Notes: generated by a model not told the origin, from the letters alone. DNA of 64,000 nucleotides from Leucoraja ocellata (GCA_036785375.1 JAWMAR010000481.1:1240001-1304000), one strand, 5' to 3'; counted from the stretch's first letter, positions 14,524-64,000 are shown. Numbers and translations: made by a program.

Positions 14524-14565
14524 TGAGGAAGAGGGTCTCACATCTACTTTGCTCCTCTGTTCCAG

Positions 14566-15455: not shown

Positions 15456-16475
15456 TGCTCCTATACTCAACTCCTCTTGTTATGAATGCCAACATGCCAT
15501 TCACTTTCTTAACTGCCTGCTGTACCTACCTGCATGCTTACTTTCATGATGCTGAACAAGTTGTCATTTAGAAGGCTAAAGGAAGTTTTGTTTGATGTTT
15601 TCACAAAGTTAATGGGAGCTAACAGAATAGATTATCCTGTGAAGATCTATTTACACACCTCCACATTCAGGGACAGTTTCTTCCCAGCTGTTATCAGGCA
15701 ACTGAATCATCCCACCACATCCAGAGAGTGGTCCTGAACTACTATCTCCCACACTGGAGACCCTCGGACTATCTTTGATTGGACTTTACTGGTTTTACCT
15801 TGCACTAAACATTAATCCCTTATCATGTATGTATACACTGTGAATGACTCATTTGTAATCATGTTTTGCCTTTCCGCTGACTGGTTAGCATGCAACAAAA
15901 GCATTTCACTGTACCTTGGTACACGTGACAATAAACTAAACTAACTAGATGAGGAGGAATTATTTTTTAGTTGTATACAGTGCTCCCTGGGTTACAAATG
16001 ATCTCCCTGATTTATGGAAATCCAACTTTATACAAAGTACAGGGTCTAAAAGTTAGAGGTAGCCATGCTGCATGAAGTGGGTCATGATGTCTGAAGAAGG
16101 GTCTCGATGTGAAACCTCACCCATTCCTTCTCTCCAGAGATACTGCCTGTGCAACTGAGTTACTCCAGCTTTTTGTGTCTATCAGAGGTTCATGGAAGTT
16201 TGGAATTGCCTTCCACAGTTAGCATTTGGTTTCAGGTGTGAAGGTGATTTTATATCTGAGATTGCAGAGTTTGACTATACGAGATGATAATGGATGTGGG
16301 GGAAAGTCAGCTCAGTGGAGCTGGTGATAGATCTCCACATATCATTGAACGGTGGAACTAACCCAAGCCTCCTGTCTTCCTGTCCTCCTGTTGTCTTCAT
16401 TTTATTCACACGTTGTTGATCTTCACAAAACATCGGCGGCAAACTAACTGTCTCACCTTCTCATTTGTCCTGAAG

Positions 16476-16615
16476 CCGGCACAGAATTGACAGGTGAGGA
16501 AGGGAAGGTGGAGCCAGGGGACTTGGATGGAGATGACAATATGCTCACAGTTGCTGCCTTCGCCATCTTGTTCGTTATCAGTTTCCTCTACAGTACCTTC
16601 GTCACTGTTGTCAAG
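16476..16615 (+). CDS. IgW: Ig heavy-chain transmembrane exon TM1 (copy 1)
   Basis: Branch ctaac + ttctcatttgtcctgaag| acceptor, AAG|gtaac donor; (A)GTELTGEEGKVEPGDLDGDDNMLTVAAFAILFVISFLYSTFVTVVK has an acidic spacer and the antigen-receptor TM motif (F..LF..S..YS..VT..K); missed by the ORF track. Confidence 0.92.
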
Positions 16616-17640
16616 GTAACGATGACCAACGACAAAGATACTTTGTGACCCCCCCACACTGTGACCGTCCATTCCTCACTACACTGTGTTCTCTGACTCT
16701 TCAATCCTCACCACACCACGGCCAACAGATGATGCAGTCTGGGACAATAAGGGGAGCGGGGTGTCAAATGGGATAGTCAGGGCCAGAGTTAAAGGGAAAG
16801 GGAGTAAAGGGATAGTTAATGACCCCAGAATTAAAGGGAAAGAAAGCTCACAAAGGGATAGGAGAGTAATAGGGATCGATGTGAAAAGTGAGATGTGTAA
16901 GGAATTAAAAGTATTGTACATGAATGTGCGAAGTACAAGAAGTAAAGTAGATGAGCTTGAAGCTCAGTTAGAGGTTGGTATATATGACATGGTGGGGAAT
17001 ACTGAGACGTGGCTGCAGGAGAATCAGGCCTGAGAACTTAATATTCAGGGTTATACAGCCTATAGAAAGGTCAGGCAGGTGGGCAGAGGAGGGGGGGGGG
17101 GTAGCTCTGCTGGTGAGGGAGGGAATTCAGTCCCTTGTGAGGGAAGACATAGGGACTGACGAGGTAGAGTCACTGTGGATTGAGTTGAGGAATTACAAAG
17201 GCAAGAAGACCCTAATTGGTGTTATCTACAGACCCCCAAATAGTAGCCCGGATGTAGGGTGTGAGTTGCAGCAGGAGTTAAAACTGGCATGTAACAAAGG
17301 TAATGCCACTGTGGTGATGGGGGATTTCAATATGCAGGTGGACTGGGAAAATCAGCTTGGTTCAGGACCCCAAGAAAGAGAGTTTGTAGAATGCCTCCGA
17401 GATGGATTCTTAGAGCTGCTTCTAATCAAGCCGATCAGAGAAAAGGCAATTCTGGATTTAGTGTTGTCTAATGAACCAGATTTGATAAGAGAACGAGAGG
17501 TAAAGGAACCGCTTCGAGGTAGTGATCATAATATGATTAGTTTTAATCTGCAATTTGAGAAGGTGAAGGTTAAATCGGAAGTGTCAGTGATGTAGTTGAA
17601 CAAAGGGGACTATGAAGGCATCAGAGAGGAGCTGGGCAAG

Positions 17641-18543
17641 TGAAGTCAAGTCAAGTCAAGTTTATTTGTCACATACACATACGAGATGTGCAGTGAAATG
17701 AAAGTGGCAATGCTCGCGGACTTTTGTGCAAAAGACAAACAACAAAACAACCAAACAAATTATAAACACAATCATAACACACATATTCTTTTACATAATA
17801 AATAATGGAAGGAAAAACGTTTAGTAGAGTTAGTCCCTGGTGAGATAGGCAGTTACAGTCCGAATTGCCTCTGGGAAGAAACTCCTTCTCAACCTCCCCG
17901 TTCTCACCGCATGGCAACGGAGGCGTTTGCCTGACCGTAGCAGCTGGAACAGTCCGTTGCAGGGGTGGAAGGGGTCTCCCATGATTTTATTTGCTCTGGA
18001 GTTGCACCTCCTGTTGTATAGTTCCTGCAGGGGGGTGAGTGAAGTTCCCATAGTGCGTTCGGCCGAACGCACTAATCTCTGCAGAGCCTTCTTGTCCTTG
18101 GCAGAGCAATTCCCAAACCAGATGGTAATGTTCCCGGACAAGATGCTTTCCACCGCCGCTGCGTAGAAGCACTGGAGGATCCTCGGAGACACTCTGAATT
18201 TCCTCAATTGCCTGAGGTGGTAAAGGCGCTGCCTTGCCTTACTCACGAGTGCTGAGGCGTGTGATGCCCATGTCATATCCTCAGTGATGTGGACTCCCAG
18301 ATATTTAAAACAGTTCACCCTATCCACAGGATCCCCATTTATCCTCAATGGAGTGTACGTCCTCGGATGATGTGCCCTCCTAAAGTCCATGATCAGCTCC
18401 TTTGTTTTTTTGATGTTCAAGAGGAGGCTGTTATCCTGGCACCAGAGTGCTAGATCAGCCACCTCCTCCCGGTAGGCCTTCTCATCGTTGTCTGAGATCA
18501 GGCCCACCACCACAGTGTCATCAGCAAACTTAATTATTGAATT
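17641..18543 (-). mobile_element. 5'-truncated Rex1/Babar-like LINE inserted in the CR1 (present in unit 1, absent from unit 2)
   Basis: ORF 17830..18513 (AYREEV..L..WC..N.L.LN..KTKELIMDFRR); AATAAA(CTTGA)n tail; empty site gccaaggtagactgg at ~51612. Confidence 0.85.
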
Positions 18544-18560
18544 AGGTAGACTGGAAAGGG

Positions 18561-18685
18561 TTCAAGAAGGAACTGCAGATGCTGGAAGATCGAAGGTACA
18601 CAAAAATGCTGGAGAAACTCAGCGGGTGCAGCAGCATCTATGGAGCGAAGGAAATAGGCGACGTTTCGGGCCGAAACCCTTCTTC
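18561..18685. mobile_element. Short Penelope-derived insertion with 13-bp TSD (AGACTGGAAAGGG); paralog at 51633-51757
   Basis: TSD at 18548-18560 and 18686-18698; interrupts CR1 ORF2. Confidence 0.75.
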
Positions 18686-20886
18686 AGACTGGAAAGGGAC
18701 CCTAGCAGGAATGACGGTGGAACAGCAATGGCAGGAATTTCTGGGCATAATCCAGAAGATGCAGGATCATTTCATTCCAAAAAGCAAGAAAGATTCTAAG
18801 GGGAGTAGGAGGCAACCGTGGCTGACAAGAGAAGTAGGGATAGAATAAAACTAAAAGAAAAGATGTATAACACAGCAAAGAGTAGCCAGAAGCCAGAGGA
18901 TTGGGAAACTTTCATAGGACAACAGAAGGAAACAAAACGGGCAATACATGCTGAAAAGATGAAGTACGAGGGGAAGCTGGCCAGGAATGTAAAGAAGGAC
19001 AGTAAAAGCTTATTTGATATGTTAAGGGGAAAAGAGTAGCAAAGACAAATGTGGGTTCCATGAAGGCAGACATGGGTGAAATTATTATGGGAAACAAGGA
19101 AATGGCAGAAGAGTTGAACAAGTACTTCGGATCTGTCTTCACTAAGGAAGACACATACAATCTCCCAGAAGTACTGGAGGACAGAGGATCTAAGGGGGTA
19201 GAGGAAATGAAAGAAATTTTCATTAGGTGAGAAATAGTATTGGGTAGGCTAATGGGACTAAAGGATGATAAATCCCCTGGGCCTGATGGTCTGCATCCCA
19301 GGGAGGTGGTTCTAGAAATAGTGGATGCATTGGTGATCATTTTCCAATGTCAATAGATTCAGGATCAGTTCCTGTGGATTGGAGGATAGCTAATGTTATC
19401 CCACTTTTCAAGAAAGGAGCGAGAGAGAAAACGGGGAATTACAGACCAGTTAGCCTGACTTTGGTGGTGGGAAAGATGCTGGAGTCAATTATTAAAGAGT
19501 TAATAATGGGGCATTTAGATAGCAGTAAAAGGATTAGTCCAAGTCAGCATGGATTTATGAAAGGAAAATCATGCTTGACTAATCTTCTGGAATTTTTTGA
19601 GGATGTGACAAGTAAAATGGATCAAGAGGTGCCAGTGGAGGTAGTGTACCTAGACTTTCAGAAAGCCTTTGATAAGGTCCCGCACGGGAGACTGGTGACT
19701 AAAATTAGAGCACATGGTATTGGGGGTAGGGTGTTGACATGGATAGAAAATTGGTTGGAAGCAAAGAGTAGGAAAGAACGGGTCCTTTTCAGAATGGCAG
19801 GCAGTGGCGAGTGGAGGCTCGGTGTTGGGGCCGCAACTGTTTACCATATATATTAATGATTTGCAAGAGGGAATTAGGAGCAACACTAGCAAGTTTGCGG
19901 ATGACACAAAGCTGGGTGGCAGTGTGAATTGTGAAGAGGATGTTAGGAGGTTGCAGGGTAACCTGGACAGGTTGAGTGAGTGGGCAGATGCGTGGCAGAT
20001 GCAGTATAATATAGATAAATGTGAGGTTATCCACTTTGGCGGCAAAAACAAGGGGGCAGATTATTATCTCAATGGGGTTAGGTTAGGCAAGGGGGAGGTA
20101 CTGCGAGACCTGGGTGTCCTTGTACACCAGTCACTGAAAATTGGCGGGCAGGTACAGCAGGCCGTGAAGAATGCTAATGGAATGTTGGCCTTCATAACAA
20201 TAGGATTTCAGTATAGGAGTAGAGAGGCTCTTCTGCAGTTGTATAGGGCTCTGGTGAGACCACATCTGGAGTATTGTATACTGCTTTGGTCTCCTAATTT
20301 GAGGAAGGACGCTGGTGTTTAGAAGGATGAGGGGGAGATCTTATAGAAACATATAAAATTATAAAAGGACTGGACAAGCGAGATGCAGGAAAAAATGTTC
20401 CCAATGTTGGGCGAGTCCAGACCCAAGGGCCTCAGTCTGAGAATAATGGGGAGGCCATAATGGGGAGGCCGTAACTGAGGTGAGAATAAACTCTTTCACC
20501 CAGTGAGTTGTGAATTTGTGCAAGTCCCTACCACAGAGGAGGCCAAATCACTGGATGGATTTAAGAGAGAGTTAGATAGGGCTCTAGGGGCTGGTGGAAT
20601 CAAGGGATATGGGGGGAAGGCAGGCACGGGTTATTAATTGGGGGTGATCAACCATGATCACAATGAATGGAGGTGCTGGCTCGAAGGGCCGAATGGCCTC
20701 CTCCTGCACCTATTTTCTATGTTTCTATGGGACCCTTCACATCCCCCTGGTCTTTGAACCTTTCCACTTTACTCCTGTCCTCTGGGCCTTGATACAGCAA
20801 ACATTCATAGAACGTTAGGTATTTGGGGCAATGACCCTGGGCTCAAACAAGGAAATCAAACAAACGTTGTATTCATATCAAATGTT

Positions 20887-21200
20887 GGGCGTCACGGTGG
20901 CACAGCGATAGAGCTGCTGCCTTACAGTGCCAGAGATCTGGGTTCCATCCTGACTACGGGTGCAGTCTGTACGTAGTTTGTACGTTCTCCCCGTGACATG
21001 CGTATGTTTTCTCCAACATCTTCGGTTTCCTCCCAAACTCCAAAGATGTACAGGTTTGTAGGTTAATTGGCTTGATGTAAATGTAAAAATATTGTCCCTA
21101 GTGTGTGTAGGGTAGTGTTAATGTGCAGGGATCGCTGGTTGGCGCAGTCTCCCTGGGCTGAAGGGCTTGTTTGATGCTGTATCACTGAACTACAACTAAC
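20887..21200 (+). mobile_element. tRNA-derived V-SINE (HE1-like)
   Basis: gggcgtcacggtggcacagcg..gagctgctgccttacag..gggttccatcctgac (A/B-box-like) then V-domain-like gtttgtacgttctccccgtgac...ggtttcctccca. Confidence 0.75.
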
Positions 21201-21520
21201 AGGGTACTCCGTATCTGGAAACTGAGTCCAAGTACGGGACCTCTCTTCAGCCCACAACTCGCATTCAGACTGTGTATCCCTTAGAGTTGACCTGGGCCAC
21301 TAATGAAAGACCACCTGTCCATGAGGGTCCATCTCCTACACACATGCACAGACCACCAATCCTCGAGGGTCCTAGAAATGTTGCAGACCCCCTGTCCATG
21401 AGGGTCCATCTCTGAGGTTAAGGACAGACTGTCTGTTATTTAGTTTGCCTGTCCCTGCAGGTCACCATCTGTGCTGCACCTTGCCACACACAATATCTAA
21501 CTTTCCTGTGTATATTACAG

Positions 21521-21532
21521 GTGCAACAATGA
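21521..21532 (+). CDS. IgW: Ig cytoplasmic exon TM2 (VQQ-stop), completing ...VTVVK|VQQ*
   Basis: ctaac branch + tttcctgtgtatattacag|GTGCAACAATGA; phase 0 matches the TM1 donor; resembles the KVK/KVQ tails of IgH. Confidence 0.75.
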   Translation: MQQ

Positions 21533-21720
21533 CCAGCCGACACACACGCCACCTTCACTCAAGAGATCGCCATGCAGCTGTTGACGTTGACAAATGGAGT
21601 CTCCCTGTCTTTCACTCACTCACTCGGCAATCCGAGGCTACTGCTCTGCAAACGCTCATTACAGGAGATAATCTTGGAAATGCACTGGGGATGCTGGGGA
21701 AGAAACCGGTTGGGATTGAG

Positions 21721-21840
21721 GGGGGTGGGGCGAGTGGGCGGGGGGTGGGGCGAGTGGGCGGGGGGTGGGGCGAGTGGGCGGGGTGTGGGGCGAGTGGGCG
21801 GGGGGTGGGGGGTGGTGGGGGGGTGGGGGTGTGGGGTGGG
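21721..21840 (+). repeat. G-rich 20-bp minisatellite (GGGGGTGGGGCGAGTGGGCG x4) plus G-runs in the putative TM 3'UTR
   Basis: Read directly from the sequence. Confidence 0.9.
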
Positions 21841-22217
21841 AAGGACAGGATAGGACATGACAGTGAGGAAATGTCAGGGTATAAGACACTGGAGTGGGTG
21901 GCATTCAGGAGTGGGAGAGGAAGGCAGGATTAATGTTTGGGAAAGGGGAGCAGATGGGAATGTGATGAGTGAATGAGAAGAGGGGAGTGTGGGAGGGGGA
22001 GGGATGCGCTGATGCCCTAGGTGCAAGAAGGGGGCATGGGGAGGGGAGAAGGAACAGGAAGCAATGTGGTGGAGGGGAGGGGAGGGGGGGGGGGGGCGAT
22101 GCTTGGGGACTTGCTCGATCAGGTTTTGTAAAGCAGATGTTGTTTAACTCATTGTCTGCAGCTTATTTTTTAATTTTTCTGCTGAACTGCATGTTTTCAT
22201 TTGAAATTAGATGCATA

Positions 22218-22228
22218 AATAAAATAAA
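22218..22228 (+). promoter_or_regulatory. Putative poly(A) signal(s) of the membrane-form mRNA
   Basis: Overlapping AATAAA x2, ~690 nt after the TM2 stop, followed by CA and tgtttggagttg, just before repeats resume. Confidence 0.5.
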
Positions 22229-22289
22229 ATAACAAAAACATGAAATGTTTGGAGTTGATCATCATTTTACTCATCACTTTAGGGACTTC

Positions 22290-25140
22290 AGCTGAGGATG
22301 TTGCCAGGACTTTTACGAGGATGTTGCCAGGATGTTGCCAGGACTCGAGGGTGTGAGCTACAGGGAGAGGTTGAGCAGGGTGGGTCTCTATTCTATGGAG
22401 CGTACGAGGATGAGGGGTGATCTTATAGAGATGTACAAAATCATAAGAGGAATAGATCGGGTGGGTGTACAGAGTCTTTTACCCAGAGTAGGGGAATCGA
22501 GGACCAGTGCACATGGGTTCAAGGTGATGGGGAAAAGATTTAAAAGGAATCGAGGGGTAACGTTTTCACACAGAGGTTGGTGGGTGTATGGAACAAACTG
22601 CCAGAGGAGGTAGTCCATCGTTTAAGAAACAGTTGGACAGGTACATGGGTAGGGCAGGTTTGGAGGGATATGGACCAAGTGCAGGCAAGTGGGACTAGGG
22701 TAGTTGGGACATTGTTGGCCGGTGTGGGCATGTTGGGCCGAAGGGCCTGTTTCCGCACTGTATTAATCTATGACTCTATGAGTGCACCAAATACACCAGA
22801 TACTGGGCTAAAACGCATCAGGAGAGGAGTACATGAACAGGTTCCGAAAAGAATACAACTGATACTGAAGAGTCAACTCCAGCACCTGATCCAAATGGCA
22901 TAGGTCAGAGGGCCAAACATTGCAGGAAAGCCCATGGGGCCAGGTATTGGAGGAACACACCTCGGGGAAAAGACATTGGGGCATGACCAGACAATGGTAG
23001 GCCTCCGGTGAGTGTTGTAGAACAGAGGGATCTAGGATTACAGGTGCATGGTTCCTTGAAGGTGTAGTCGCAGATAGTTCGGGTGGTCAAAAATACTTTT
23101 GACACATTGGATTCATCAGTCAGTGTATTGAGTATAGAAGTTGAGAGGTCATGGAAGGTCATGTTTAACTAATCTTCTTGAATTTTTTGAAGATGTTACT
23201 CGGGAAATTGATGAGGGTAAAGCAGTGGATGTTGTGTATATGGACTTTAGTAAGGCCTTTGACAAGGTTCCTCATGGAAGGTTGGTTAAGAAGGTTCAAT
23301 GGTTGGGTATTAATGGTGGAGTAGCAAGATGGATTCAACAGTGGCTGAATGGGAGATGCCAGAGAGTAATGGTGGATGGTTGTTTGTCAGGTTGGAGGCC
23401 AGTGAAGAGTGGGGTGCCACAGGGATCTGTGTTGGGTCCACTGTTTTTTGTCATGTACATCAATGATCTGGATGATGGTGTGGTAAATTGGATTAGTAAG
23501 TATGCAGATGATACTAAGTTAGGTGGGGTTGCGGGTAATGAAGTAGAGTTTCAAAGTCTACAGAGAGATTTATGCCAGTTGGAAGAGTGGGCTGAAAGAT
23601 GGCAGATGGAGTTTAATGCTGATAAGTGTGAGGTGCTACATCTTGGCAGGACAAATCAAAATAGGACGTACATGGTAAATGGTAGGGAATTGAAGAATGT
23701 AGGTGAACAGAGGGATCTGGGAATAACTGTGCACAGTTCCCTGAAAGTGGAATCTCATGTAGATAGGGTGGTAAAGAAAGCTTTTGGTGTGCTGGCCTTT
23801 ATAAATCAGAGCATTGAGTATAGAAGTTGGGATGTAATGTTAAAATTGTACAAGGTATTGGTGAGGCCAATTCTGAAGTATGGTGTCATTTTTGGTCGCC
23901 TAATTATAGGAAGGATGTCAACAAATTAGAGAGAGTACAGAGGAGATTTACTAGAATGTTGCCTGGGTTTCAGCACCTAAGTTACAGAGAAAGGTTGAAC
24001 AAGTTAGGGCTTTATTCTTTGGAGCACAGAAGGTTAAGGGAGGACTTGATAGAGGTTTTTAAAATGATGATAGGGATAGACAGAGTTGACGTGGAAAAGC
24101 TTTTCCCACTGAGAGTAGGGAAGATTCAAACAAGGGGACATGACTTGAGAATTAAGGGACTGAAGTTTAGGGGTAACATGAGAGGGAACTTCTTTACTCA
24201 GAGAGTGGTAGCTGTGTGGAATGAGCTTCCAGTGAAGGTGGTGGAGGCAGGCTTGTTTTTATCATTTAAAAATAAATTGGATAGTTATATGGATGGGAAG
24301 GGAATGGAGGGTTATGGTCTGAGCGCAGGTATATGAGACTAGGGGAGGTTATGTGTTCGGCACGGACTAGAAGGGTCGAGATGGCCTGTTTCCGTGCTGT
24401 AATTGTTATATGGTTATTATATGGTCATGTTCGATTTCTCTGACTCAGAGGGGGGTGGAGGCAGGTTCTCTGGATATTTTTAAGAGAGAGCTCTTAAAGA
24501 TGGCGGAGTCAGGGGATATGGGGAGGAGGCAGGAACGGGCTACTGATTGTGGATGATCAGCCATGATCGCATTGAGTGGCGGTGCTGGCTCGAAGGGCCG
24601 AATGGCCTTTTCCTGCACCTATTGTTTATTGTCTATTATATGTCATTGATGGGACCACATTTAGAGTATTGTGTTCAGTTCTGGGCACAATGTTATTGGG
24701 AAGATGTTAACAAGCTGGAAAGGGTACAGAGAAGATTTATGAGGATGTTGCCAGGATATCAGGGTCGGCTATAGGGAGAGGTTACGTAGGCTGGGACATT
24801 AATCCTTGGAGCGCAGGAGTTTGAATGGTGACCTTATAGAGGTGTACAAAATCATGAGAGGAATAGATTGGGTAGATGCATAGAGTCTTTTGCCCAGAGT
24901 AGGGGAATCGAGTACCAGAAGACATAGGTTCAAGGTGTAGGGGAAAAGATTGAATAGGAATCTGAGAGGTAAACTTTTCCACACAGGGTGGTGGGTGTAT
25001 GGAATGAACTGCCGGAGGAGGTAGTTGATGCTGGGACTATCCCAATATTTAAGATACAGTTGGACAGGTACATAGATAGGACAGGGTTGGAAGGATGTGG
25101 GCCAAACACAGGCAGGTGGGACTAGTGTAGCTGGGACATG
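22290..25140 (+). mobile_element. Mosaic of old CR1 3' fragments
   Basis: MLPGLEG.SYRERL..GLYS.E..R.RGDLIE.YKI.RG.D motifs (22332, 24547-25140). Confidence 0.75.
23154..24422 (+). mobile_element. Young 5'-truncated CR1 (present in unit 1, absent from unit 2), TSD GGTCATG
   Basis: RT ORF 23141..23929 (SGVPQGSVLGP, YADDTK); TSD at 23147-23153 and 24423-24429; empty site at ~53756. Confidence 0.9.
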
Positions 25141-25144
25141 GAAA

Positions 25145-25890
25145 CAATTCATGAAATCAATATTCATACTGCTGGGTTGTAAGCTGTCCAAGTGAAATAT
25201 GAGATGTTGTTCCTCCAATTTGTGTTTCATCTCACTCTGACAGTGGAGGAGGCCCAGGACAGACGGGTCAGTGTGGGAATGGGACGGGGAATTAAAGTGT
25301 TTGGCAACCGGGAGATCAGGTTGGTCCAGGCGGACTGAGCGAAGGTGTTCAGCGAAACGATCGCCCAGTCTACGTTTGGTCTCGCAGATGTATTAGAGTC
25401 CACACCTTGAACAGTGGATACAGTAGATGAGGTTGGAGGAGGTGCAAGTGAAGTGAACTAACATTTATTTCCCATCCACAACCGCCTTTGAACTGGATGT
25501 TTCCGAGGGCCATTTCAGAGCTGATGCGGGTCGGCTACATAACTGGGGGCCTGGAGTCACATAACAAGACCAGGTAAAGTCAGCAGATGCTCTTCCCTGA
25601 AGCTTATAGTCATGGGTTTAGACACCAATGGTAGACAAAATGCTGGAGAAACTCAGTGGGTGAGGCAGCATCTACGGAGCGAAGGAATAGGTGATGTTTC
25701 AGGTTGAGACCCTTCTTCAGACTGAAGTGTGGCGGGGGGGGGGGGGGGGGGGAGAAGAAAGGAAGAGACGGGGACAGTGGGTTGTGGGCTGTGGGAGAGC
25801 TGGGGAGGGGAGGGGAAAGAGTGAGAAAGCAAGGACTACCTGAAATAGCGGTATGAACATTGAACTCTCCAATTTCAGGTAAGGAATACA
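25145..25890 (-). mobile_element. Penelope-like element remnant (GIY-YIG endonuclease fragment + pseudo-LTR)
   Basis: Paralog of 54465-55200, whose ORF reads FTCTSSNLIYCIHC..C...ETKRRLGDRF...PVAKHFN. Confidence 0.75.
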
Positions 25891-25906
25891 CATAAGGAAT
25901 ACACGT

Positions 25907-47153: not shown

Positions 47154-47293
47154 CCGGCACAGAATTGACAGGTGAGGAAGGGAAGGTGGAGCCAGGGGAC
47201 TTGGATGGAGATGACAATATGCTCACAGTTGCTGCCTTCGCCATCCTGTTCATTATCAGTTTCCTCTACAGTACCTTCGTCACTGTTGTCAAG
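47154..47293 (+). CDS. IgW: Ig TM1 exon, copy 2 (intact, but no TM2 in its unit)
   Basis: Same acceptor/donor as copy 1; one V>I and one synonymous change seen. Confidence 0.85.
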
Positions 47294-47571
47294 GTAACGA
47301 TGACCAACGACAAAGATACTTTGTGACCCCCCCACACTGTGACCGTCCATTCCTCACTACACTGTGTTCTCTGACTCTTCAATCCTCACCACACCACGGC
47401 CAACAGATGATGCAGTCTGGGACAATAAGGGGGGGTGTGTCAAATGGGATAGTCAGGGCCGGAGTTAAAGGGAAAGGGAGTAAAGGGATAGTTAATGACC
47501 CAAGAATTAAAGGGAAAGAAAGCTCACAAAGGGATAGGAGAGTAATAAGGATCAATGTGAAAGGTGAGAAA

Positions 47572-50500: not shown

Positions 50501-50877
50501 TAGGGAAATTGACGAGGGTAAGGCAGTGGATGTTGTCTATATGGACTTTAGAAAGGCCTTTGACAAGTTTCCTCATGGAAGGTTGGTTAAGAAGGTTCAA
50601 CTGTTGGGTATAAATGCAGGAATAGAACTTCTTTACTCAGAGAGTGGTAGCGGTGTGGAATGAGCTTCCAGTGGAAGTGGTGGAGGCAGGTTCATTGGTA
50701 TCATTTAAAAATAAATTGGATAGGCATATGGATGAGAAGGGAATGGAGGGTTATGGTATGAGTGCAGGCAGGTGGGACTAAGGGGAAAAAAACATTTGTT
50801 CGGCACGGACTTGTAGGGCCGAGATGGCCTGTTTCCGTGCTGTAATTGTTATATGATTATATGGTTATATGGTTATA
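47572..50877 (+). mobile_element. CR1 LINE private to unit 2: intact-looking ORF1, ORF2 with an internal deletion at ~50625
   Basis: ORF1 47765..48697 (CSGC...CTRC, GDSIVRG, HIGTND, DGLHLN); ORF2 frame to 50409; jumps from KVQLLGINAG to the 3' end; absent at 16893 and 63317. Confidence 0.9.
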
Positions 50878-52406: not shown

Positions 52407-54464
52407 GGGGGTGGTGGGGCGAGTGGGTGGGGGGTGGGGGGGGTGGGGTGGGAAGGACAGGATAGGACATGACAGTGGGAAAATGTCAGGGTATAAGACA
52501 CTGGAGTGGGTGACATTCAGGAGTGGGAGAGGAAGGCAGGATTAATGTTTGGGAAAGGGGAGCAGATGGGAATGTGATGAGTGAATGAGAAGAGGGGAGT
52601 GTGGGAGGGGGAGGGATGTGCTGATGCCCTAGGAGCAAGAAGGGGGCATGGGGAAGGGAGAAGGAACATCAAGCAATGTGGTGGAGGGGAGGGGGGGGGG
52701 GGGGGCGATGCTTGGGGACTTGCTCAATCAGATTTTGTAAAGCAGATGTTGTTTAACTCATTGTCTGCAGCTTATTTTTTAATTTTTCTGCTGAACTGCA
52801 TGTTTTCATTTGAAATTAGTTGCATAAATGAAATAAAATAACAAAAACATGAAATGTTTGGAGTTGATCATCATTTTACTCATCACTTTAGGGACTTCAG
52901 CTGAGGATGTTGCCAGGACTTTTACGAGGATGTTGCCAGGATGTTGCCAGGACTCGAGGGTGTGAGCTACAGGGAGAGGTTGAGCAGGGTGGGTCTCTAT
53001 TCTATGGAGCGTACGAGGATGAGGGGTGATCTTACAGAGATGTACAAAATCATAAGAGGAATAGATCGGGTGGGTGCACAGAGTCTTTTACCCAGAGTAG
53101 GGGAATCGAGGACCAGTGCACATGGGTTCAAGGTGAAGGGGAAAAGATTTAAAATGAATCAAGGTGTAACTTTTTCACACAGAGGTTGGTGGGTGTATGG
53201 AACAACCTGCCAGAGGAGATAGTCCATGGTTTAAGAAACAGTTGGACAGGTACATGGGTAGGGCAGGTTTGGAGGGATATGGACCAAGTGCAGGCAAGTG
53301 GGACTAGGGTAGTTGGGACATTGTTGGCCGGTGTGGGCATGTTGGGCCGAAGGGCCTGTTTCCGCACTGTATTAATCTATGACTCTATGAGTGCACCAAA
53401 TACACCAGATACTGGGCTAAAATGCATCAGGAGAGGAGTACATGAACAGGTTCCGAAAAGAATACAACTGATACTGAAGAGTCAACTCCAGCACCTGATC
53501 CAAATGGCATAGGTCAGAGGGCCAAACATTGCAGGAAAGCCCATGGGGCCAGGTATTGGAGGAACACACCTCGGGGAAAAGACATTGGGACATGACCAGA
53601 CAATGGTAGGCCTCCGGTGAGTGTTGTAGAACAGAGGGATCTAGGATTACAGGTGCATGGTTCCTTGAAGGTGTAGTCGCAGATAGTTCGGGTTGTCAAA
53701 AATACTTTTGACACATTGGATTCATCAGTCAGTGTATTGAGTATAGAGGTTGAGAGGTCATGTTCGAATTCTCTGCCTCAGAGGGGGGTGGAGGCAGGTT
53801 CTCTGGATATTTTTAAGAGAGAGCTCTTAAAGATTGCGGAGTCAGAGGATATGGGGAGGAGGCACGAACGGGCTACTGATTGTGGATGATCAGCCATGAT
53901 CGCATTGAATGGCGGTGCTGGCTCGAAGGGCCGAATGGCCTATTCCTACACCTATTGTTTATTGTCTATTATATGTCATTGATGGGACCACATTTAGAGT
54001 ATTGTGTTCAGTTTTGGGCACAATGTTATTGGGAAGATGTAAACAAGCTGGAAAGGGTACAGAGAAGATTTATGAGGATGTTGCCAGGATATCAGGGTCG
54101 GCTATAGGGAGAGGTTACGTAGGCTGGGACTCTAATCCTTTGAATGGTGACCTTATAGAGGTGTACAAAATCATGAGAGGAATAGATTGGGTAGATGCAT
54201 AGAGCCTTTTGCCCAGAGTAGGGGAATCGAGGACCAGAAGACATAGGTTCAAGGTATAGGGGAAAAGATTGAATAGGAATCTGAGAGGTAAACTTTTCCA
54301 CACAGGGTGGTGGGTGTATGGAATGAACTGCCGGAGGAGGTAGTTGAGGCTGGGACTATCCCAATATTTAAGAAACAGTTGGACAGGTACATGGATAGGA
54401 CAGGGTTGGAAGGATGTGGGCCAAACACAGGCAGGTGGGACTAGTGTAGCTGGGACATGGAAAC

Positions 54465-55200
54465 AATTTCATGAAATCAATATTCCTACTGCTGTGTTGT
54501 AAGCTGTCCAAGTGAAATATGAGATGCTGTTCCTCCAATTTGTGTTTCATCTCACTCTGACAGTGGAGGAGGTCCAGGACAGAAAGGTCAGTGTGGGAAT
54601 GGGACGGGGAATTAAAGTGTTTGGCAACCGGGAGATCAGGTTGGTCCAGGCGGACTGAGCGAAGGTATTCAGCGAAACGATCGCCCAGTCTACGTTTGGT
54701 CTCGCAGATGTGTATGAGTCCACACCTTGAACAGTGGATACAGTAGATGAGGTTGGAGGAGGTGCAAGTGAAGTGAACTAACATTTATTTCCCGTCCACA
54801 ACTGCCTTTGAACTGGATGTTTCCCAGGGCCATTTCAGAGCTGATTCGGGTCGGCTACATAACTGGGGGCCTGGAGTCACATAACAAGACCAGGTAAAGT
54901 CAGCAGATGCTCTTCCCTGAAGCTTATAGTCATGGGTTTAGACACCAATGGTAGACAAAATGCTGGAGAAACTCAGTGGGTGAGGCAGCATCTACGGAGT
55001 GAAGGAATAGGTGATGTTTCAGGTCGAGACCCTTCCTCAGACTGATGTGTGGGGGGGGGGGGGGGGGGGAGAAGAAAGGACGAGACGGGGACAGTGGGTT
55101 GTGGGCTGTGGGAGAGCTGGGAAGGGGAGGGGAAAGAGTGAGAAAGCAAGGACTACCTGAAATAGCGGTATGAACATTGAACTCTCCAATTTCAGGTAAG
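54465..55200 (-). mobile_element. Penelope-like element remnant (GIY-YIG fragment + pseudo-LTR)
   Basis: ORF 54368..54784 NLIYCIHCSRCGLIHICETKRRLGDRFAE..PVAKHFN..EQHLIFHL. Confidence 0.8.
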
Positions 55201-55222
55201 GAATACACATAAGGAATACACG

Positions 55223-58100
55223 TGGGGGTCGACCGGACGGCAGGACTCTGCGGTCGAGAGGCTTGAGAGAGAGCTACTGGACGCAGAGTCTCGCCTGGGT
55301 CAGTTTAGTGATGACTCCTGTGAATGCGGAATTCAGGAGAAGAAGGAAGCCTTGAGGAACCTGCAACTTGAGCGGTCCCGAGGCGTTTACGTGAGGTTGC
55401 GGGTCCAGATGCTGCACGATCTGAACTGAGCTTCACCTTTCTTTTTCTCTCTGGAGAAAGGGCGGGGAGCCCGCAAACAGGTCGTAGAGATTCTCGCAGA
55501 CGATGGCTCCTCTGTCACTGATCCAGAGAGGATTAGTGCCCTGGTCAGGTCCTTTTACGGGTCCCTGTTCTCCGCAGGTGGATTCAGCGGGGAGGCTCAG
55601 CAGGACCTGTGGGAGGGTCTACCAACTGTAGAAAGGGAGGTGGCCGATCTTCTTGATGGCTCCTTATCTTTGGAGGAGTTGACTCGTGCATTGCATCAGC
55701 TCAGGAGGGGTAAGTCCCCCGGGCTGGATGGGTTGACGGTAAAGTATGTTAGAACTTTCTGGGATATCCTGGGGGTGATTACATGTTGGTTCTGGGGGAG
55801 AGCCTGGCGACAGGGGAGATGCCCCTCTCGTGGCGTAGAGCAGTTGTTGTCCTGCTGCCCAAGACGGGGGAACTCCGCTTGGTGAAGTACTGGCGCCCGG
55901 TCTCCCTCCTATGTACAGAGTACAAAGTTCTTGCATGGGGGATGGCGAATTGCATGGGCTCCGTGCTGTCTCAACTGATTCATCCTGACCAGTCCTACAC
56001 AGCCCCTGGCCGGTCCATTCAGGATAACATCCACCTGGTTAGGGACCTGATTCATCTAGCCCAGGGTACTGGTCAGTCAGCTGCTTTTCTGTCTCTTGAT
56101 CAGGAGAAGGCTTTTGATAGGGTAGAGCATGAATACCTCTTCGGGATGTTGCAAGCGTTTGGATTTGGACCACATTTTGTGGCCCGGGGTCTGGCTTTTG
56201 TATGCTGCAGCGGAGTGCCTTGTGAAGGTTAATGGTGTGTTGTTGGCTCCCTTTCATTTTGGGAGGGGGGTCCGTCAGGGGTGCCCCATGTCGGGTCAGT
56301 TGTTCTCGGTCTGTGTGGAGCCATTCCTGTGTCTTCGGAGGAGGTTGACAGGCCTGGCCCTACCGGGCCCAGGGGTGGAGTTGGTTCTTTCGGCCTATGC
56401 CGATGATGTACTCCTTATGTTCACCGATCCTGGTGACCTGCGGAGGATGCGTGATTGCCAGAAGATTTTCTCGGCTGCATCTTCTGCCAGGATTAATTGG
56501 AGCAAGTGCTCTGGACTTTTAGTGGGTCAGTGGCAGGTGGACTCCCTGCCAGAGGAGATGGCAATGTTTGCGTGGAGCACCACGCACCTCCTCTATCTGG
56601 GGGTGTACCTGAGTCCCACTGAGGATGCTTGTCCGGCAAATTGGCAGGAGTTGGAGACGAAAGTGGTTGCCAGGCTGGGGCGCTGGTCAGGCCTGCTTGG
56701 AGTTCTATCCTTTCAGGGGAGGGTGTTGGTCATAAACCAGCTGGTGGCTTCCATGTTATGGTACCAGCTGGCTACTCTTGTCCCACCTTCCATATTTGTA
56801 ACTGCTGTACAGAGGAAGCTGGTGGATTTATTTTGGGGAAATAGGAAGCACTGGGTTTCCGCAGCGGTTCTGAGTCTCCCGTTAGAGGAGGGCGGCCAGT
56901 CCTTGGTATGCGTGCGTACCCAGGTGGCGGCTCTCCATCTCAGGACTCTGCGGAGGTACATGTATGTAGAGAACCCCCCCAGATGGCACGTTTTGGCCAC
57001 GTATTGTTTCCGTCGGGTTCGTTGCCTAAGGGGGGTCTCACGGCTCCCGGTGGCGGGCATCAGTCGACCCGCCCTAAGGGGCTTGCCTGTTTTCTACTGG
57101 GATGTGCTAAGAGTGAGGAATTTGGCTGTTTTCAGCCAGCGTGTCACTCCACGAGGGGAAGGGGATGTTGCGGCTGCGGGAGTGGCCGGTCCTCACTCTG
57201 TCATGGCGAGTGTTGAGGAGAGGCGCGTGCCTAGAGTGGTTCTGAATGAGCTTTCACCCGCATCATCAGATCTGCTCATCGGGCCTCGACTCTGGGATAT
57301 TTCTTGGGAACCGGCTCCACACAACCTGAGCCGCCTCTCTGAGATGACCAGCATGCCGTTTCATGATGCGAAGAGACGCTCACTGTACAGAATGTTCCTG
57401 TACTTTCTGCACCTCCTTGCCTTCATCTCCCGCCCTGACACACCATGGCAGTCTGTGTTCCCACCCAAAGGTGGGAAAGGTCCCCAGTGGGGGTCCATCT
57501 ATAAGGGAGTTGTCCCCCTTTACATTGGGGACCTGGGGTGGAGAGTGCTGCATAGAGCGGTGGCGTGTAATAAACTTTAGAGTCGGTTCGCGGGCTCGTC
57601 TACCACCTGTATTTTCTGCAGCCAGGAAGAGAGTTTGTTCCTATTGATATATATATGAAAGGGTTGTTCCTCAAGCACTGGTTACATTTTAGTCCTACGA
57701 TTCTTGTGTTTGGACACAAGGCAGGGTGTGGGGAGAGCCAAGTGGGGGGGGTGGAGTGGGACTTCCCTGTCGGTTTCTTCCTGGGCCTGGCCAAGATGGC
57801 CATTGGCGGGTCCAGGCAGCGGGCGGTCGAGGGTCAGGCTAGAGTCGGATGCCTGCCCCTCTTTCGGGCCTATGTCCGTGCACGTGTGTCCCTGGAGAGG
57901 GAACACGCGGTGTCCACGGGTACTCTGGAGGTATTCCGTGGGCGCTGGTCACCGCGTGGGGTTGAGAGTATTGTAAACAATGAATGCACATTTGTACTAT
58001 AATGATTATTTGATATAGTGTAATTTCTGATTATGTTTTGATCTGTTGTATCATATGACTGTGTCGAATAAAGTCTTTGAAAAAGAAAAAGAAAAAAAAA
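55223..58100 (+). mobile_element. 5'-truncated Tx1-clade LINE (RT + C-terminus, frameshifted)
   Basis: GKSPGLDGL, WRPVSLLC, SLDQEKAFDRV, RGVRQGCPMSG, SAYADD, LGWRVLH; AATAAA + A-tail ~58067-58100. Confidence 0.88.
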
Positions 58101-60286
58101 AGAGAGAGAAGGAGAGCAAGAGAAGGAGAGGGAATGGTGTTGGGGAAGATGGGATAGAGGGAGTGGAATGTGGGCTGAAGGGTGAAAGAAAGTGTGTGAC
58201 TGAGCGAGCGAGGGAGAGAATAAGGGGGGAGAGGGAGTTGGGAGGGGTAGGTGTGAATGAGAGAAGGGAGGGAATGAATGAGGGAGAGAATGATTAGGGA
58301 GGGAGAAAATCTCAGAGAGGGTGGGGATGGAGTGCATGAGTGGAGGAAGGGAGTGAATGTAGTGAAGTAGAGGAGTGAATAAGGGGCGGAAAAAGAGGAG
58401 TGACTGAGGGGAGAGAGATCTCTTCCTCCTCTTTTCTCGCCCCATCCCTCCCTCCCTCCCTCACTCCCCCCCCCCCCCCCCGTCTCTCTCTCTCACTCTC
58501 TCGCTCCTATTTGATAGTGCCCTCCAATAACTATTTAATGGTGCCCTCAATTGACTATATAAAGTTGCCCCTCCTTCATTATTTTGCGGTCAACACTCCC
58601 ACCAATATGACAGGTCCCTGTATTTTATCACATAACTTTAATTCATGTCCATTAGAGATAGGAGCAAAATTAGGCCATTAAGACCATCGAGTACTCCGCC
58701 ATTTAAACTATGGCTGATGTCTCTTTCCCTCTCAACCCCATTCTCCTGCCTTCGTCCCATAACCCCTGACACCCGCGCTAATTAAGAATCCACTCCTAGA
58801 ACTTAATAAACTCATAAAGTCACCTCTGGGTCCACAATTCATAAAGGTTCGTCATCACAGCAAAGCATCGCCTGCTTATCCACAAAAAAAAACTAGCTTT
58901 AGATTTTAAAACCTATTTTATTCATAGAATGTCCTGATTTCCAAATACAGATGTCGAGCGAATATCAAGGTGACAACAAAATAACTGGAGCTGTCATTGC
59001 GGCGTTACACCACTGGGTGGGAGTGTTGTCCACAAAATTAAGGGTCTGCCTTTTTAATTTTAATTTTGTTTTATATTCCCTGAGATAAAAATTCTTATCA
59101 AGTAAGAATATCTTTATATATCCGGAGGGTTGTGTTAGTGAATGGAGAACCTGCATTTGGAGTATTGTGAGCAGTTTTGGCCCCATATCTGAGGAAGGAT
59201 GTGGTGGCATTGGAGAGGGTCCAGAGGAGGTTTAATTTAGTTTAGTTTAGAGCACAGCACAGCACAGAAACAGGCCCTTCGTCCCACTGAGTCCGCATCG
59301 AACAGCGACTAACACCAACACTATTCTACACACACTAGGGACAATTTACTAATTTTACCGAAGCCAATTAACGTCTTTGGAGTGTGGGAGGGTTCCGGAG
59401 CACCCGGAGAAAATTCACGCAGGTCACGGGAAGAACATGCAAACTCCGTACAGACAGCACCTGTAGTCAGGATCAAACCCAGGTCTCATGTGCTGAGAGG
59501 CAGTAACTCTACCGCTGCACCGCCATGCTGTCCCTACAGCTCTCACCAACTTCTACAGATGCGCCGTGGAATGCATCTTATCGGGATGGATCACAGCACG
59601 GTTTGGGAACAGTTCCATCCAAAGAGCCGCAAGAAATCACAGAGTTGTGGATGCAGTACCGACCATCCAACATAAACCAACCTCACTTCCATCAACTCCA
59701 TCTACACCTCACACTGCCTCTGCAAGACCAGCAGCATAATCAAGGACCAGTCTCAGCCTGGTCACTCCCTCTTGTCCTGTCTCCCATCGGGCAAGAGGTA
59801 CAAAAGTGTTAAAACGCACACCTCCAGATTCAGGGACAGTTTCTTCCCTGGAATAATACAGCGTGGAAACAGGCCCTTCGGCCCAACTTGCCCACATCGG
59901 CCAACATGTCAAATATACACTAGTACCACCTGCCTGCATTTGGTCCATATCCCTCCAAACCTGCCCTGTCCATGTACCTGTCCAAATGTGATACTCCCTG
60001 CCTCAATTACATCCTCCAGCAGCTCGTTCCATGCACCCAGCACTCTCTGTGTGGAAAAGTTACCCCTCAGGTTCCTATTAAATCTTTCATCGTTCACCTC
60101 CTCTCCCACCTTAAACCCGTGCCCTCTGTTTCTCCATTCCCCAGCTCTGGGCAAGAGATTCTGTGCGTCTGCCTGATCTATTCCCCTCATGATTGTACAC
60201 CTCCATAAGATCACCCCTCATTCTCCTGTCCTCCAAGGAATAGAGTCGCTTACTGCCCCAACCTCTCCCTGTAGCTCAGACCCCTC

Positions 60287-60580
60287 NNNNNNNNNNNNNN
60301 NNNNNNNNNNNNNNNNNNNNNNNNNNNNNNNNNNNNNNNNNNNNNNNNNNNNNNNNNNNNNNNNNNNNNNNNNNNNNNNNNNNNNNNNNNNNNNNNNNNN
60401 NNNNNNNNNNNNNNNNNNNNNNNNNNNNNNNNNNNNNNNNNNNNNNNNNNNNNNNNNNNNNNNNNNNNNNNNNNNNNNNNNNNNNNNNNNNNNNNNNNNN
60501 NNNNNNNNNNNNNNNNNNNNNNNNNNNNNNNNNNNNNNNNNNNNNNNNNNNNNNNNNNNNNNNNNNNNNNNNNNNNNNNN
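60287..60580. other. Assembly gap (294 N)
   Basis: Run of N at the same unit position as the first gap. Confidence 1.
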
Positions 60581-61898
60581 TCTGCCACTCTCTCTACCCT
60601 CTTCCTCTCTCACCATCCTCTTTCTCTCCTCTTGCGCCCCTGTCTCACTCCTCCTCTCTCCCTCCTCTCCCCCCCCCCTCCCTCTCTCCCCCCCCCCTCT
60701 AGCTGGGAATAAAATGGAGGATGTGCATCAGAGACGTTGATTTCCTGGACGCCAAATGATTTTGTGATCAGATCAGGATGCGTTTATTCCAGATCAGCAC
60801 AAAAGAAAATTGAAATGTAGAGATGGGAGTGATAATCCTGCCCTGCTCCCTCTCCCTCTCACCTCCCCTCCCTCCCTCTGCACCTGTCCCTCTCCACTCC
60901 CTCCCACCCTCTCCCCTCCCCTCGCCTCCCTCCCCACCCTCCCTCTCCTCTACCATCACCTCTCCCTCCTCACCTCCCCTGCCCTCACCCTCCTCTCCCA
61001 TCTCTTTCCCCTTTCGCACCTCCCCTCCTCCCATCTCCTCCCCTCCCTTCCCCCCTCCTCTCCTCTCCGCCCCATTTCCCTCCTCACCACATCTACTAAC
61101 CACATCTCCTTTTCTCCTCTATCCTCCCATCTACAATCCCATCCCCTCTCTTCTCCTCCCCTCCCCTCTTCCCATTCATCACAAAAGATCATTGTGATAT
61201 TGTGTTGAGAGGTTTTCTACTCTCATTCCCTCCCCCTCCCTTCCTTACCTCTCCCCTCAAAGCTCCTCTCCCCTCATCCCTCCCCCTCTTCCCTCATCTC
61301 CTCTCCCGTCATTTCCTCTACTCCCCTCTTCTCACCTCTCCCCTCATCTACTTCCTACTTCTGTCCTCCCCTCCCCTCTTGTTTCTCCCCTCTCCTCTCT
61401 TCTCTCCTGTACACTCCCTCCCCTCCTCCTCCCTTCTCCCCTCTCCTCCCCTTTGTTCTCTCCTTTCTTCCCCTCTCCCCACATCCCCTCTCCTTCCCTC
61501 TCCCCTCCCCTCCTTTCTCCCTCCTCTCCCCCTCCTACTCCTATTGTCTATTGTCTTTTGTCCTCTCCTCTCCTCCTGTCCCCTCTCCTCCTCCTTTCAC
61601 GCTCCCCCCTTCCTCTTCACTACCTTTCTTCTCTCATCTCTCCACTGCTCCTCTCCCTCTCCTCTCTTCTCCACTAGCCTTAACCCTCCCCTCCGCTCTT
61701 CTCTACCTTGTCTCTCCCCTCCTCTCCCCGCCTCCCCTCCTCTCCTCTCTACCCCTCTCCTCTCCCCTCCTCTCCTCCTCCCCACTACTCCTCCTCCCTC
61801 CTCACCTCTCCACTCCTCTCCTCCCCTCTCCTATCCCCTCATAACCCCTTCTCTTTCCTCCCCTCATATCTCCATCCCTCCCTCTCTTCCCTCCCCTC
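60581..61898. repeat. Long polypyrimidine low-complexity tract
   Basis: Read directly. Confidence 0.9.
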
Positions 61899-62899
61899 AA
61901 ATACAGCTCGATAATTATAATATGGTGGTGAGATTTGTACCTGCTGTACCTACCTGCATGCTTACTTTCATGATGCTGAACAAGTTGTCATTTACAAGGC
62001 TAAAGGAAGTTTTGTTTGATGTTTTCACAAAGTTAATGGGAGCTAACAGAATAGATTATCCTGTGAAGATCTATTTACACACCTCCACATTCAGGGACAG
62101 TTTCTTCCCAGCTGTTATCAGGCAACTGAATCATCCCACCACATCCAGGGAGTGGTCCTGAACTACTATCTCCCTCACTGGAGACCCTCGGACTATCTTT
62201 GATTGGACTTTACTGGTTTTACCTTGTACTAAACATTAATCCCTTATCATGTATGTATACACTGTGAATGACTCATTTGTAATCATGTTTTGCCTTTCCG
62301 CTGACTGGTTAGCATGCAACAAAAGCATTTCACTGTACCTTGGTACACGTGACAATAAACTAAACTAACTAGATGAGGAGGAATTATTTTTTAGTTGTAT
62401 ACAGTGCTCCCTGGGTTACAAATGATCTCCCTGATTTATGGAAATCCAACTCTATACAAAGTACTGGGTCTAAAAGTTAGAGGTAGCCATGCTACATGAA
62501 GTGGGTCATGGCGTCTGAAGAAGGGTCTCGACGTGAAACCTCACCAATTCCTTCTCTCCAGAGATACTGCCTGTGCAACTGAGTTACTCCAGCTTTTTGT
62601 GTCTATCAGAGGTTCATGGAAGTTTGGAATTGCCTTCCACAGTTAGCATTTGGTTCCAGGTGTGAAGGTGATTTTATATCTGAGATTGCAGAGTTTGACT
62701 ATACGAGATGATAATGGATGTGGGGGAAAGTCAGCTCAGTGGAGCTGGTGATAGATCTCCACATATCATTGAACGGTGGAACTAACCCAAGCCTCCTGTC
62801 TTCCTGTCCTCCTGTTGTCTTCATTTTATTCACACGTTGTTGATCTTCACAAAACATCGGCGGCAAACTAACTGTCTCACCTTCTCATTTGTCCTGAAG

Positions 62900-63039
62900 C
62901 CGGCACAGAATTGACAGGTGAGGAAGGGAAGGTGGAGCCAGGGGACTTGGATGGAGATGACAATATGCTCACAGTTGCTGCCTTCGCCATCTTGTTCATT
63001 ATCAGTTTCCTCTACAGTACCTTCGTCACTGTTGTCAAG
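62900..63039 (+). CDS. IgW: Ig TM1 exon, copy 3 (intact)
   Basis: Same splice sites; LFIISFLYSTFVTVVK. Confidence 0.85.
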
Positions 63040-63174
63040 GTAACGATGACCAACGACAAAGATACTTTGTGACCCCCCCACACTGTGACCGTCCATTCCT
63101 CACTACACTGTGTTCTCTGACTCTTCAATCCTCACCACACCACGGCCAACAGATGATGCAGTCTGGGACAATAA

Positions 63175-64000
63175 GGGGAGCGGGGTGTCAAATGGGATAG
63201 TCAGGGCCAGAGTTAAAGGGAAAGAGAGTAAAGGGATAGTTAATGACCCAAGAATTAAAGGGAAAGAAAGCTCACAAAGGGATAGGAGAATAATAGGGAT
63301 CGATGTGAAAGGTGAGATGTGTAAGGAATTAAAAGTATTGTATATGAATGTGCGAAGTATAAGAGGTAAAGTAGATGAGTTTGAAGCTCAGTTAGAGGTT
63401 GGTAGATATGACATGGTGGGGATTACTGAGACGTGGCTGCAGGAGGATCAGGCCTGGGAACTTAATATTCAGGGTTATACATTCTATAGAAAGGTCAGGC
63501 AGGTGGGCAGAGGAGGGCGGTAGCTCTGCTGGTGAGGGAGGGAATTCAGTCCCTTGCGAGGGAAGACATAGGGACTGATGAGGTAGAGTCACTGTGGATT
63601 GAGTTGAGGAATTACAAAGGCAAGAAGACCCTAATTGGTGTTATCTACAGACCCCCAAATAGTAGCCCGGATGTAGGGTGTAAGTTGCAGCAGGAGTTAA
63701 AACTGGCATGTAACAAAGGTAATGCCACTGTGGTGATGGGGGATTTCAATATGCAGGTAGACTGGGAAAATCAGCTTGGTTCAGGACCCCAAGAAAGAGA
63801 GTTTGTAGAATGCCTCTGAGATGGATTCTTAGAGCAGCTTCTAATCAAGCCAACCAGAGAAAAGGCAATTCTGGATTTAGTGTTGTCTAATGAACCAGAT
63901 ATGATAAGAGAACGAGAGGTAAAGGAACCGCTTGGAGGTAGTGATCATAATATGATTAGTTTTAATCTGCAATTTGAGAAGGTGAAGGTTAAATCGGAAG
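63175..64000 (+). mobile_element. Old CR1 (paralog of 16750 onward), runs off the window
   Basis: YMNVRSI, ITETWL, YRPPNS, MGDFN. Confidence 0.88.

What the first reader, a model, noticed from the sequence alone, without database searches (positions are those of the whole stretch)
15516..64000. Transmembrane exon triplicated within a ~15.7-kb tandem unit containing no visible C exons
Seen: three TM1 exons (16476, 47154, 62900), each open with branch point, acceptor and donor and nearly identical. Unit offsets are exact. Units 1 and 2 differ by private TE insertions and deletions, and three copies exceed two alleles. Inference: one IgH gene has an array of alternative membrane anchors and 3' ends. 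The extra copies may instead be neutral passengers of a recent duplication, since the flanks are also highly similar.
Basis: partly seen in the sequence, partly recalled or inferred. Interest (0 to 1): 0.7.

Follow-up and report, generated by a model that had tools for sequence, protein, structure and literature searches.

The report
Duplicated antibody membrane-anchor exons in skate
A skate antibody gene of the IgW class is followed by three spare copies of its membrane-anchor exon, and about fifty more copies lie scattered through the assembly; they encode practically the same anchor and are most likely passengers of repeated DNA duplication rather than a set of alternative anchors.

Summary
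The window is the 3' end of a skate IgW cluster. TM1 stands four times, not three (16476, 47154, 62900 and about 105426, beyond the window), in units of 30.7, 15.7, 42.5 and 37.7 kb that differ by 1.3-2.2%. All three junctions are one join, which recurs in two clusters on another contig, so a private misassembly is unlikely. I located TM2 (VQQ*, 21521) and the poly(A) signal (22218): units 1, 3 and 4 carry a full TM1-TM2-poly(A) cassette; unit 2 has lost TM2. The four anchors differ by one Ile/Val. Exons vary no less than flanks, though this test also shows no constraint in the clusters' own first exons, so it is weak. The assembly holds 68 TM1 copies for 10 IgW clusters; 53 are orphans in a dispersed duplicated segment of at least 28 kb, and 30 of 33 aligned are equally intact. 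Intactness therefore says little. Best reading: neutral passengers of one tandem duplication expanded by unequal crossing-over (0.75). No RNA evidence on copy use was obtained.

The parts
5411..5713 (+). IgW C7 exon, pair 1 (C3-like)
   Evidence: tblastn; boundaries read
6151..6468 (+). IgW C8 exon, pair 1 (C4-like)
   Evidence: Pfam C1-set E=1.8e-19
7476..7778 (+). IgW C7 exon, pair 2
8213..8530 (+). IgW C8 exon, pair 2
   Evidence: C1-set E=6.1e-20
13847..14149 (+). IgW C7 exon, pair 3
14566..14883 (+).
   Evidence: C1-set E=9.7e-21
15516..46193 (+). Tandem unit 1 (30,678 bp), mostly retroelement-like repeats, holding the gene's own TM1, TM2 and poly(A) signal
16476..16615 (+). TM1 copy 1 (the cluster's first membrane exon)
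   Evidence: 89% identical over the matched stretch to the TM end of a sawfish IgW-type model P0002
21521..22240 (+). TM2 exon of unit 1 (VQQ-stop) with 3' UTR; AATAAA at 22218; end approximate
   Evidence: only hit of the tail pattern in this unit; homologue tails VQQ/VLQ/AQQ. Splicing inferred, not shown by RNA
46193..46194 (+). Junction unit 1/unit 2: end of a CT-rich repeat tract joined to the C8-TM1 intron, with one base that matches neither parent side
46194..61939 (+). Tandem unit 2 (15,746 bp), the shortest copy
47154..47293 (+). TM1 copy 2 (V33I and one silent change against copy 1)
47570..50874 (.). Insertion in the TM1-TM2 intron of unit 2, partly shared with unit 4
52404..52406 (+). 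Breakpoint of a 2.46-kb deletion (unit-1 19334-21794) that removed TM2 from unit 2; distal 3' UTR and an AATAAA remain
61939..61940 (+). Junction unit 2/unit 3, the same join as at 46193/46194
61940..64000 (+). Start of tandem unit 3 (runs to window-coordinate 104466; its TM2 is at 66795)
62900..63039 (+). TM1 copy 3 (V33I against copy 1)

Best explanation
The window holds the 3' end of a skate IgW heavy-chain cluster whose TM1-containing flank stands four times in tandem, and the three extra membrane cassettes are likely unused passengers of that duplication. Shown: one junction sequence is shared by all three joins here and by two clusters on contig C1015 that carry two TM1 each; units 1, 3 and 4 hold TM1, TM2 and a poly(A) signal, unit 2 has lost TM2. 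Inferred: (1) one non-homologous tandem duplication of a 17-19 kb flank (break in a CT-rich tract, one extra base at the join) occurred in the ancestor of these C2-less clusters; (2) whole-cluster duplication copied the two-TM state; (3) unequal crossing-over raised it to four here and left mosaic units; (4) membrane transcripts splice C8 to TM1 copy 1 and TM2 copy 1 and end near 22.2 kb, so cassettes 31, 46 and 89 kb further on are rarely reached; (5) the extras look intact because they are young.
For: Same junction at 5 places in the assembly; unjoined parent ends after unit 4 and in neighbour cluster B. Unit divergence 1.3-2.2%; unit 4 matches unit 2 at its start and unit 3 further on. TM2 deleted from unit 2. 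Proteins of copies 1-4 differ only by V33I, which also varies among first exons (I in 3 of 8). Variant sites exon versus flank after masking: copies 1-4 2/140 vs 32/875, p=0.21; 5 extra copies 4/140 vs 36/875, p=0.64; 33 orphans 18/140 vs 115/865, p=1.0. Extras 3 replacement to 1 silent, as expected under neutrality (p=1.0). Neutral chance that three copies stay intact 0.54-0.63 under assumed indel rates. 68 TM1 copies against 10 C1 and 10 C6-secretory exons; 13 of 13 orphans examined have no Ig exon in 7.8-63 kb upstream, yet 30 of 33 keep acceptor, frame and donor. 19 AATAAA hexamers lie between TM2 copy 1 and TM1 copy 2.
Against: The exon-versus-flank test does not show constraint in the 8 first exons either (8/140 vs 39/874, p=0.52), and C128 versus this cluster differs as much in the exon (17/140) as in the 5' flank (51/532), so the test cannot separate used from unused copies. 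None of the 5 tandem extras has a stop, frameshift or lost splice dinucleotide, and 4 of 5 by my reading keep TM2 (units 3, 4 and one C1015 copy shown; its inverted twin inferred from 99.5% identity). Orphans show 9 replacement to 7 silent where 72% replacement is expected (p=0.17), a slight lean towards constraint. The duplicated state persists in 3 clusters. There is no RNA evidence either way.
Confidence: 0.75

Rival explanations
1. The extra cassettes are used as alternative last exons: transcripts sometimes read through the first poly(A) site and splice C8 to TM1 copy 2, 3 or 4, changing 3' UTR, output or (copy 2, no TM2) the cytoplasmic tail to the read-through VTMTNDKDTL.
For: All splice signals intact and units 3 and 4 complete. 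IgW is known for many splice forms (PMC4279169, PMC5192425 passages). The junction is kept in 3 clusters.
Against: One conservative difference among four anchors and identical VQQ tails; the read-through tail is open in all four copies, so copy 2 adds nothing new; a complete cassette comes first; orphans are as intact without any C exon nearby.
Confidence: 0.12
2. The spare and orphan cassettes are not spliced in but act as donors for gene conversion or recombination that reshuffles IgW membrane exons.
For: Alleles are shared in a patchwork: C1015a's first TM1 carries I33 and G45 while its 99.5% twin carries V33 and V45; one extra copy on C1015 carries the orphan-type V22 and L28.
Against: Such exchange is expected among any near-identical repeats and implies no role; ancestral polymorphism or assembly mixing would give the same picture.
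Confidence: 0.07
3. The array is partly an assembly artefact: paralogous or allelic 3' flanks were stitched head to tail.
For: The assembly is fragmented (5,847 contigs) and may hold haplotigs (C3005 and C1015b are identical over the aligned TM region). No contig of 4 public runs bridged the junction (those runs hold at most 55% of the sampled words).
Against: The join is a specific sequence found 5 times on 2 contigs, in both orientations, with copy-specific substitutions beside it; four units differ by 1.3-2.2% and by large indels; none of the 7 other clusters shows the join.
Confidence: 0.06

Closest known systems
Cartilaginous-fish IgW (IgX/IgNARC) heavy-chain clusters; nurse shark, 6-8 C exons per cluster (PMC5192425 and PMC4279169, passages)
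   Same: V, D, J, C1, C3-C6 with secretory tail, further C3/C4-like pairs, TM1 and TM2; C domains 94-99% identical to a little-skate model (P0026) and 52-72% to nurse shark IgNARC (P0031).
   Different: C2 is absent, the C7-C8 pair stands three times, D1 and J are germline-joined, and TM1 stands four times. The passages read describe membrane forms that differ in C-domain number, not in duplicated TM exons.
Tandem C-exon duplications in IgD/IgW and UrIg2 (zebrafish, sturgeon, coelacanth in PMC5192425; UrIg2 in PMC12227049; passages)
   Same: Repeated blocks made by tandem duplication and homogenised by conversion inside Ig-type loci.
   Different: Those blocks add domains to one transcript; here the repeated block is the terminal cassette, whose copies exclude one another.
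Drosophila Dscam exon 17.1/17.2 alternative transmembrane exons (PMC2566808, passages)
   Different: Dscam's two exons send the protein to dendrites or axons; here the anchors are almost identical, each has its own 3' end, and use is not shown.
Ig orphons and segmental-duplication relics (term and concept recalled, not from a call)
   Same: Ig gene fragments copied away from their locus inside larger duplicated segments.
   Different: Here the fragment is the membrane cassette and reaches about 53 copies; I found no description of this.

Membership tests
IgW heavy-chain cluster | V, D and J segments with RSS upstream of the C exons in one cluster | tested here: met
   V with 23-spacer RSS and a germline D1-J join with 12-spacer RSS about 21.5 kb upstream of the window
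IgW heavy-chain cluster | C domains orthologous to IgW, with a C6 secretory tail | tested here: met
   IgM-like C exons are only about 40% and one IgNAR-like exon 64% identical to C6
IgW heavy-chain cluster | C2 exon (with the short secretory tail behind it) | tested here: not met
   2.1-kb deletion against neighbour cluster B; C2 found in 4 of 10 clusters. A derived loss: the cluster is a C2-less IgW variant
IgW heavy-chain cluster | IgW-type TM1 and TM2 (tail VQQ/VLQ/AQQ) | tested here: met
IgW heavy-chain cluster | Expressed and rearranged in B cells | tested here: inconclusive
   RNA lay swamped by repeats and from other organisms; the D1-J join has TGA in the J frame at nt 7-9
Alternative transmembrane-exon system (Dscam type) | Two or more intact TM exons in tandem behind shared upstream exons | tested here: met
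Alternative transmembrane-exon system (Dscam type) | Alternatives encode distinct anchors or tails | tested here: not met
   one Ile/Val among four TM1; identical VQQ in three TM2
Alternative transmembrane-exon system (Dscam type) | Each alternative found in mRNA | not testable with these tools
   no RNA holder listed for this stretch
Alternative transmembrane-exon system (Dscam type) | Purifying selection on each alternative | tested here: inconclusive
   no exon/flank difference, but the positive control shows none either
Tandem segmental duplication | Head-to-tail units over 1 kb at over 90% identity with one shared junction | tested here: met

The most novel reading that the evidence does not exclude
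Skate IgW has a mobile, separately amplified membrane cassette: tandem spares serve as alternative last exons that tune membrane-IgW output, and the roughly fifty orphan TM1-TM2 cassettes are kept as acceptors for splicing or recombination onto other exons, a layer of C-region plasticity not described for antibody genes.
Probability: 0.1. Interest if true: 0.7.

Novelty: new variant of a known kind. Interest (0 to 1): 0.3.

Why it matters
As passengers, the copies show how fast IgW clusters remodel (TM1 one to four times, C7-C8 pair one to four times, C2 lost in 6 of 10) and warn that counting TM exons or mapping reads to them overstates IgW gene number about sevenfold in this assembly (68 against 10). 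If extras or orphans were used, it would be an antibody gene choosing among duplicated membrane cassettes, and the copy-specific bases make that testable with one RNA experiment.

Tried and rejected
RNA: no RNA holder was listed; laying 4 RNA or RNA-guessed runs of other organisms on 13700-27200 was swamped by repeats and showed no C8-TM or TM1-TM2 joint among the rows printed: no information. Junction: 4 runs (X1, X3, X4, X5) laid on 46125-46275 gave 15 pieces, none bridging; loose ends showed the two unjoined parent forms; contigs show presence only, and these may be other species, so this is not counted as evidence of absence. The first exon/flank test without masking gave p=0.001 for first exons and 4e-20 for orphans; I traced this to non-homologous flank in the alignment and replaced it by the masked test. 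A mammal-style TM2 (VK-stop) pattern found nothing; the homologue tails led to the real one. 'D-less V-J cluster' idea: rejected, the open layout is V-D1-D2-D3-J and this cluster is D1-J joined. 'Orphan segment carries another gene': no Rfam hit; ORFs of 150 aa or more looked like retroelement or transposase fragments by eye (not scanned against Pfam). The two primary papers on IgW splice forms are not held; they were seen only through review passages, so a mention of duplicated TM exons there cannot be excluded.

Full report
Setting. The window is G000:C481:1240001-1304000 of a 3.44-Gb assembly in 5,847 contigs. Positions outside it are given as window coordinates (contig position minus 1,240,000). 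Protein matches place the gene in IgW of skates: C domains are 94-99% identical to a little-skate model (P0026), and hits named IgNARC and 'IgW transmembrane form' are among the 40 homologues.

Anatomy of the gene. Upstream of the window lie leader and V (about -22.1 to -21.7 kb), a germline D1-J join, C1, C3, C4, C5 and C6 with secretory tail; in the window follow three C7-C8 pairs and TM1. C2 is deleted against neighbour cluster B, 238 kb downstream. The D1-J join has TGA in the J frame at nt 7-9, so a productive V join would need at least 7 nt trimmed (inference).

The observation. TM1 exons at 16476, 47154 and 62900 are as described; a fourth lies at 105426. Units measure 30,678, 15,746, 42,527 and 37,659 bp and differ by 1.3-2.2% over 10-28 kb of aligned sequence. 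No V or C exon lies in 15516-142125. The three joins are one sequence; behind unit 4 and in cluster B the left side continues unjoined. One base at the join matches neither parent side, and the left side ends a CT-rich tract, which suggests a non-homologous first event (inference). Unit 4 resembles unit 2 at its start and unit 3 further on, and unit 3 holds a partial extra copy, as unequal crossing-over would give (inference).

TM2. Homologues end in VVK-VQQ, VLQ or AQQ. A pattern for this tail found one site per unit, at 21521, 66795 and 116740, and one in cluster B; none in unit 2, where a deletion equal to unit-1 19334-21794 removed it. AATAAA follows at 22218. So unit 1 is a complete 3' end ahead of all extras. 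The splice itself is inferred from homology.

Other clusters. Pattern searches give 10 C1, 10 C6-secretory, 4 C2 and 68 TM1 matches. All ten clusters were tabulated: TM1 stands four times here, twice in each of two inverted C2-less clusters on C1015 (same join), once in the other seven; for three of these seven (C1442a, C2945, C3005) the contig ends within 18 kb of TM1, so an extra copy could be missed. Counts may include haplotigs. The remaining 53 TM1 are orphans. I aligned 33 of them; they lie on one side of a supported branch (99/98); 30 keep acceptor, frame and donor, 3 have lost the acceptor. Thirteen were examined with 7.8-63 kb upstream: none has a V or C exon, 12 have TM2 within the range fetched, and most share a segment of up to at least 28 kb at 95-99% identity.

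Selection. With non-homologous flank masked, variant sites in exon versus flank were 2/140 vs 32/875 for the four copies (p=0.21), 4/140 vs 36/875 for 5 extras (p=0.64), 18/140 vs 115/865 for 33 orphans (p=1.0) and 8/140 vs 39/874 for 8 first exons, the two C128 clusters left out (p=0.52). The unmasked version gave misleading significance. Replacement to silent: extras 3:1; orphans 9:7 in 29 rows, 4 rearranged rows dropped; 72% replacement expected from a flank spectrum that left out further rearranged rows (p=1.0 and 0.17). At about 1.1% per lineage, and with assumed indel rates, a neutral copy stays intact with probability 0.82-0.85.

Reads. No RNA holder was listed, the RNA lay was uninformative, and no contig of four other runs bridged the join. 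Reality of the join rests on its five occurrences on two contigs and on unit-specific differences.

Reading. Most likely a real tandem duplication of the IgW 3' flank, expanded by unequal crossing-over, whose extra cassettes are passengers (0.75). Alternative use stays possible (0.12) but would give almost the same protein.

Literature. Seen as passages only: PMC4279169, PMC12227049, PMC5192425, PMC2566808. Searches (listings and abstract starts) showed no report of duplicated or orphan IgW TM exons; the two primary papers on IgW isoforms were not held, no supplements were read, and most subscription papers are outside the library. The exon names C1-C8 are my labels, by order and homology.

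Noticed in passing
53 places in G000 (list), e.g. L091, L093, L115-L134: About 53 orphan IgW TM1 (mostly with TM2) cassettes in a dispersed, repeat-rich duplicated segment of at least 28 kb, with no V or C exon nearby in 13 of 13 examined; what drives the amplification is unexplained.
   Followed up: partly
upstream of the window, about -15.5 kb (L029); also C1015, C1442, C2945: C2 is missing in 6 of 10 IgW clusters; this cluster and the C1015 cluster compared share one 2.1-kb deletion.
   Followed up: partly
window 5411-14883: The C7-C8 pair between the secretory exon and TM1 stands three times here and one to four times in other clusters; sawfish, manta and bamboo-shark gene models also show many such pairs. 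Membrane IgW length may vary by cluster.
   Followed up: partly
L028, about -21.7 to -21.4 kb; ten clusters: Open IgW clusters have three D segments (V-D1-D2-D3-J); four clusters are V-D1 joined (one of them also D3-J joined) and this one is D1-J joined with an in-frame stop and a V end shorter by a few bases.
   Followed up: partly
G000:C1015:5573-104208 and 260970-359676: A 99-kb inverted duplication at 99.5% identity holding two whole IgW clusters; a similar tail-to-tail pair lies on C128.
   Followed up: partly
L082 (C581), TM1 at 3989 and 7991: An independent 4-kb tandem duplication of an orphan TM1 that is 3 nt shorter; two orphans also carry two TM2 each within range (C1872, C2429), as does C754.
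   Followed up: no
G000:C128:4552993: A single IgNAR-like C exon (64% to C6) 1.2 Mb from the C128 IgW pair; at least 59 IgM-like C exons elsewhere (capped list).
   Followed up: no
window 56126-57577: 484-aa open frame with a reverse-transcriptase domain (PF00078, E=1.1e-11), part of a retroelement insertion in unit 2.
   Followed up: no
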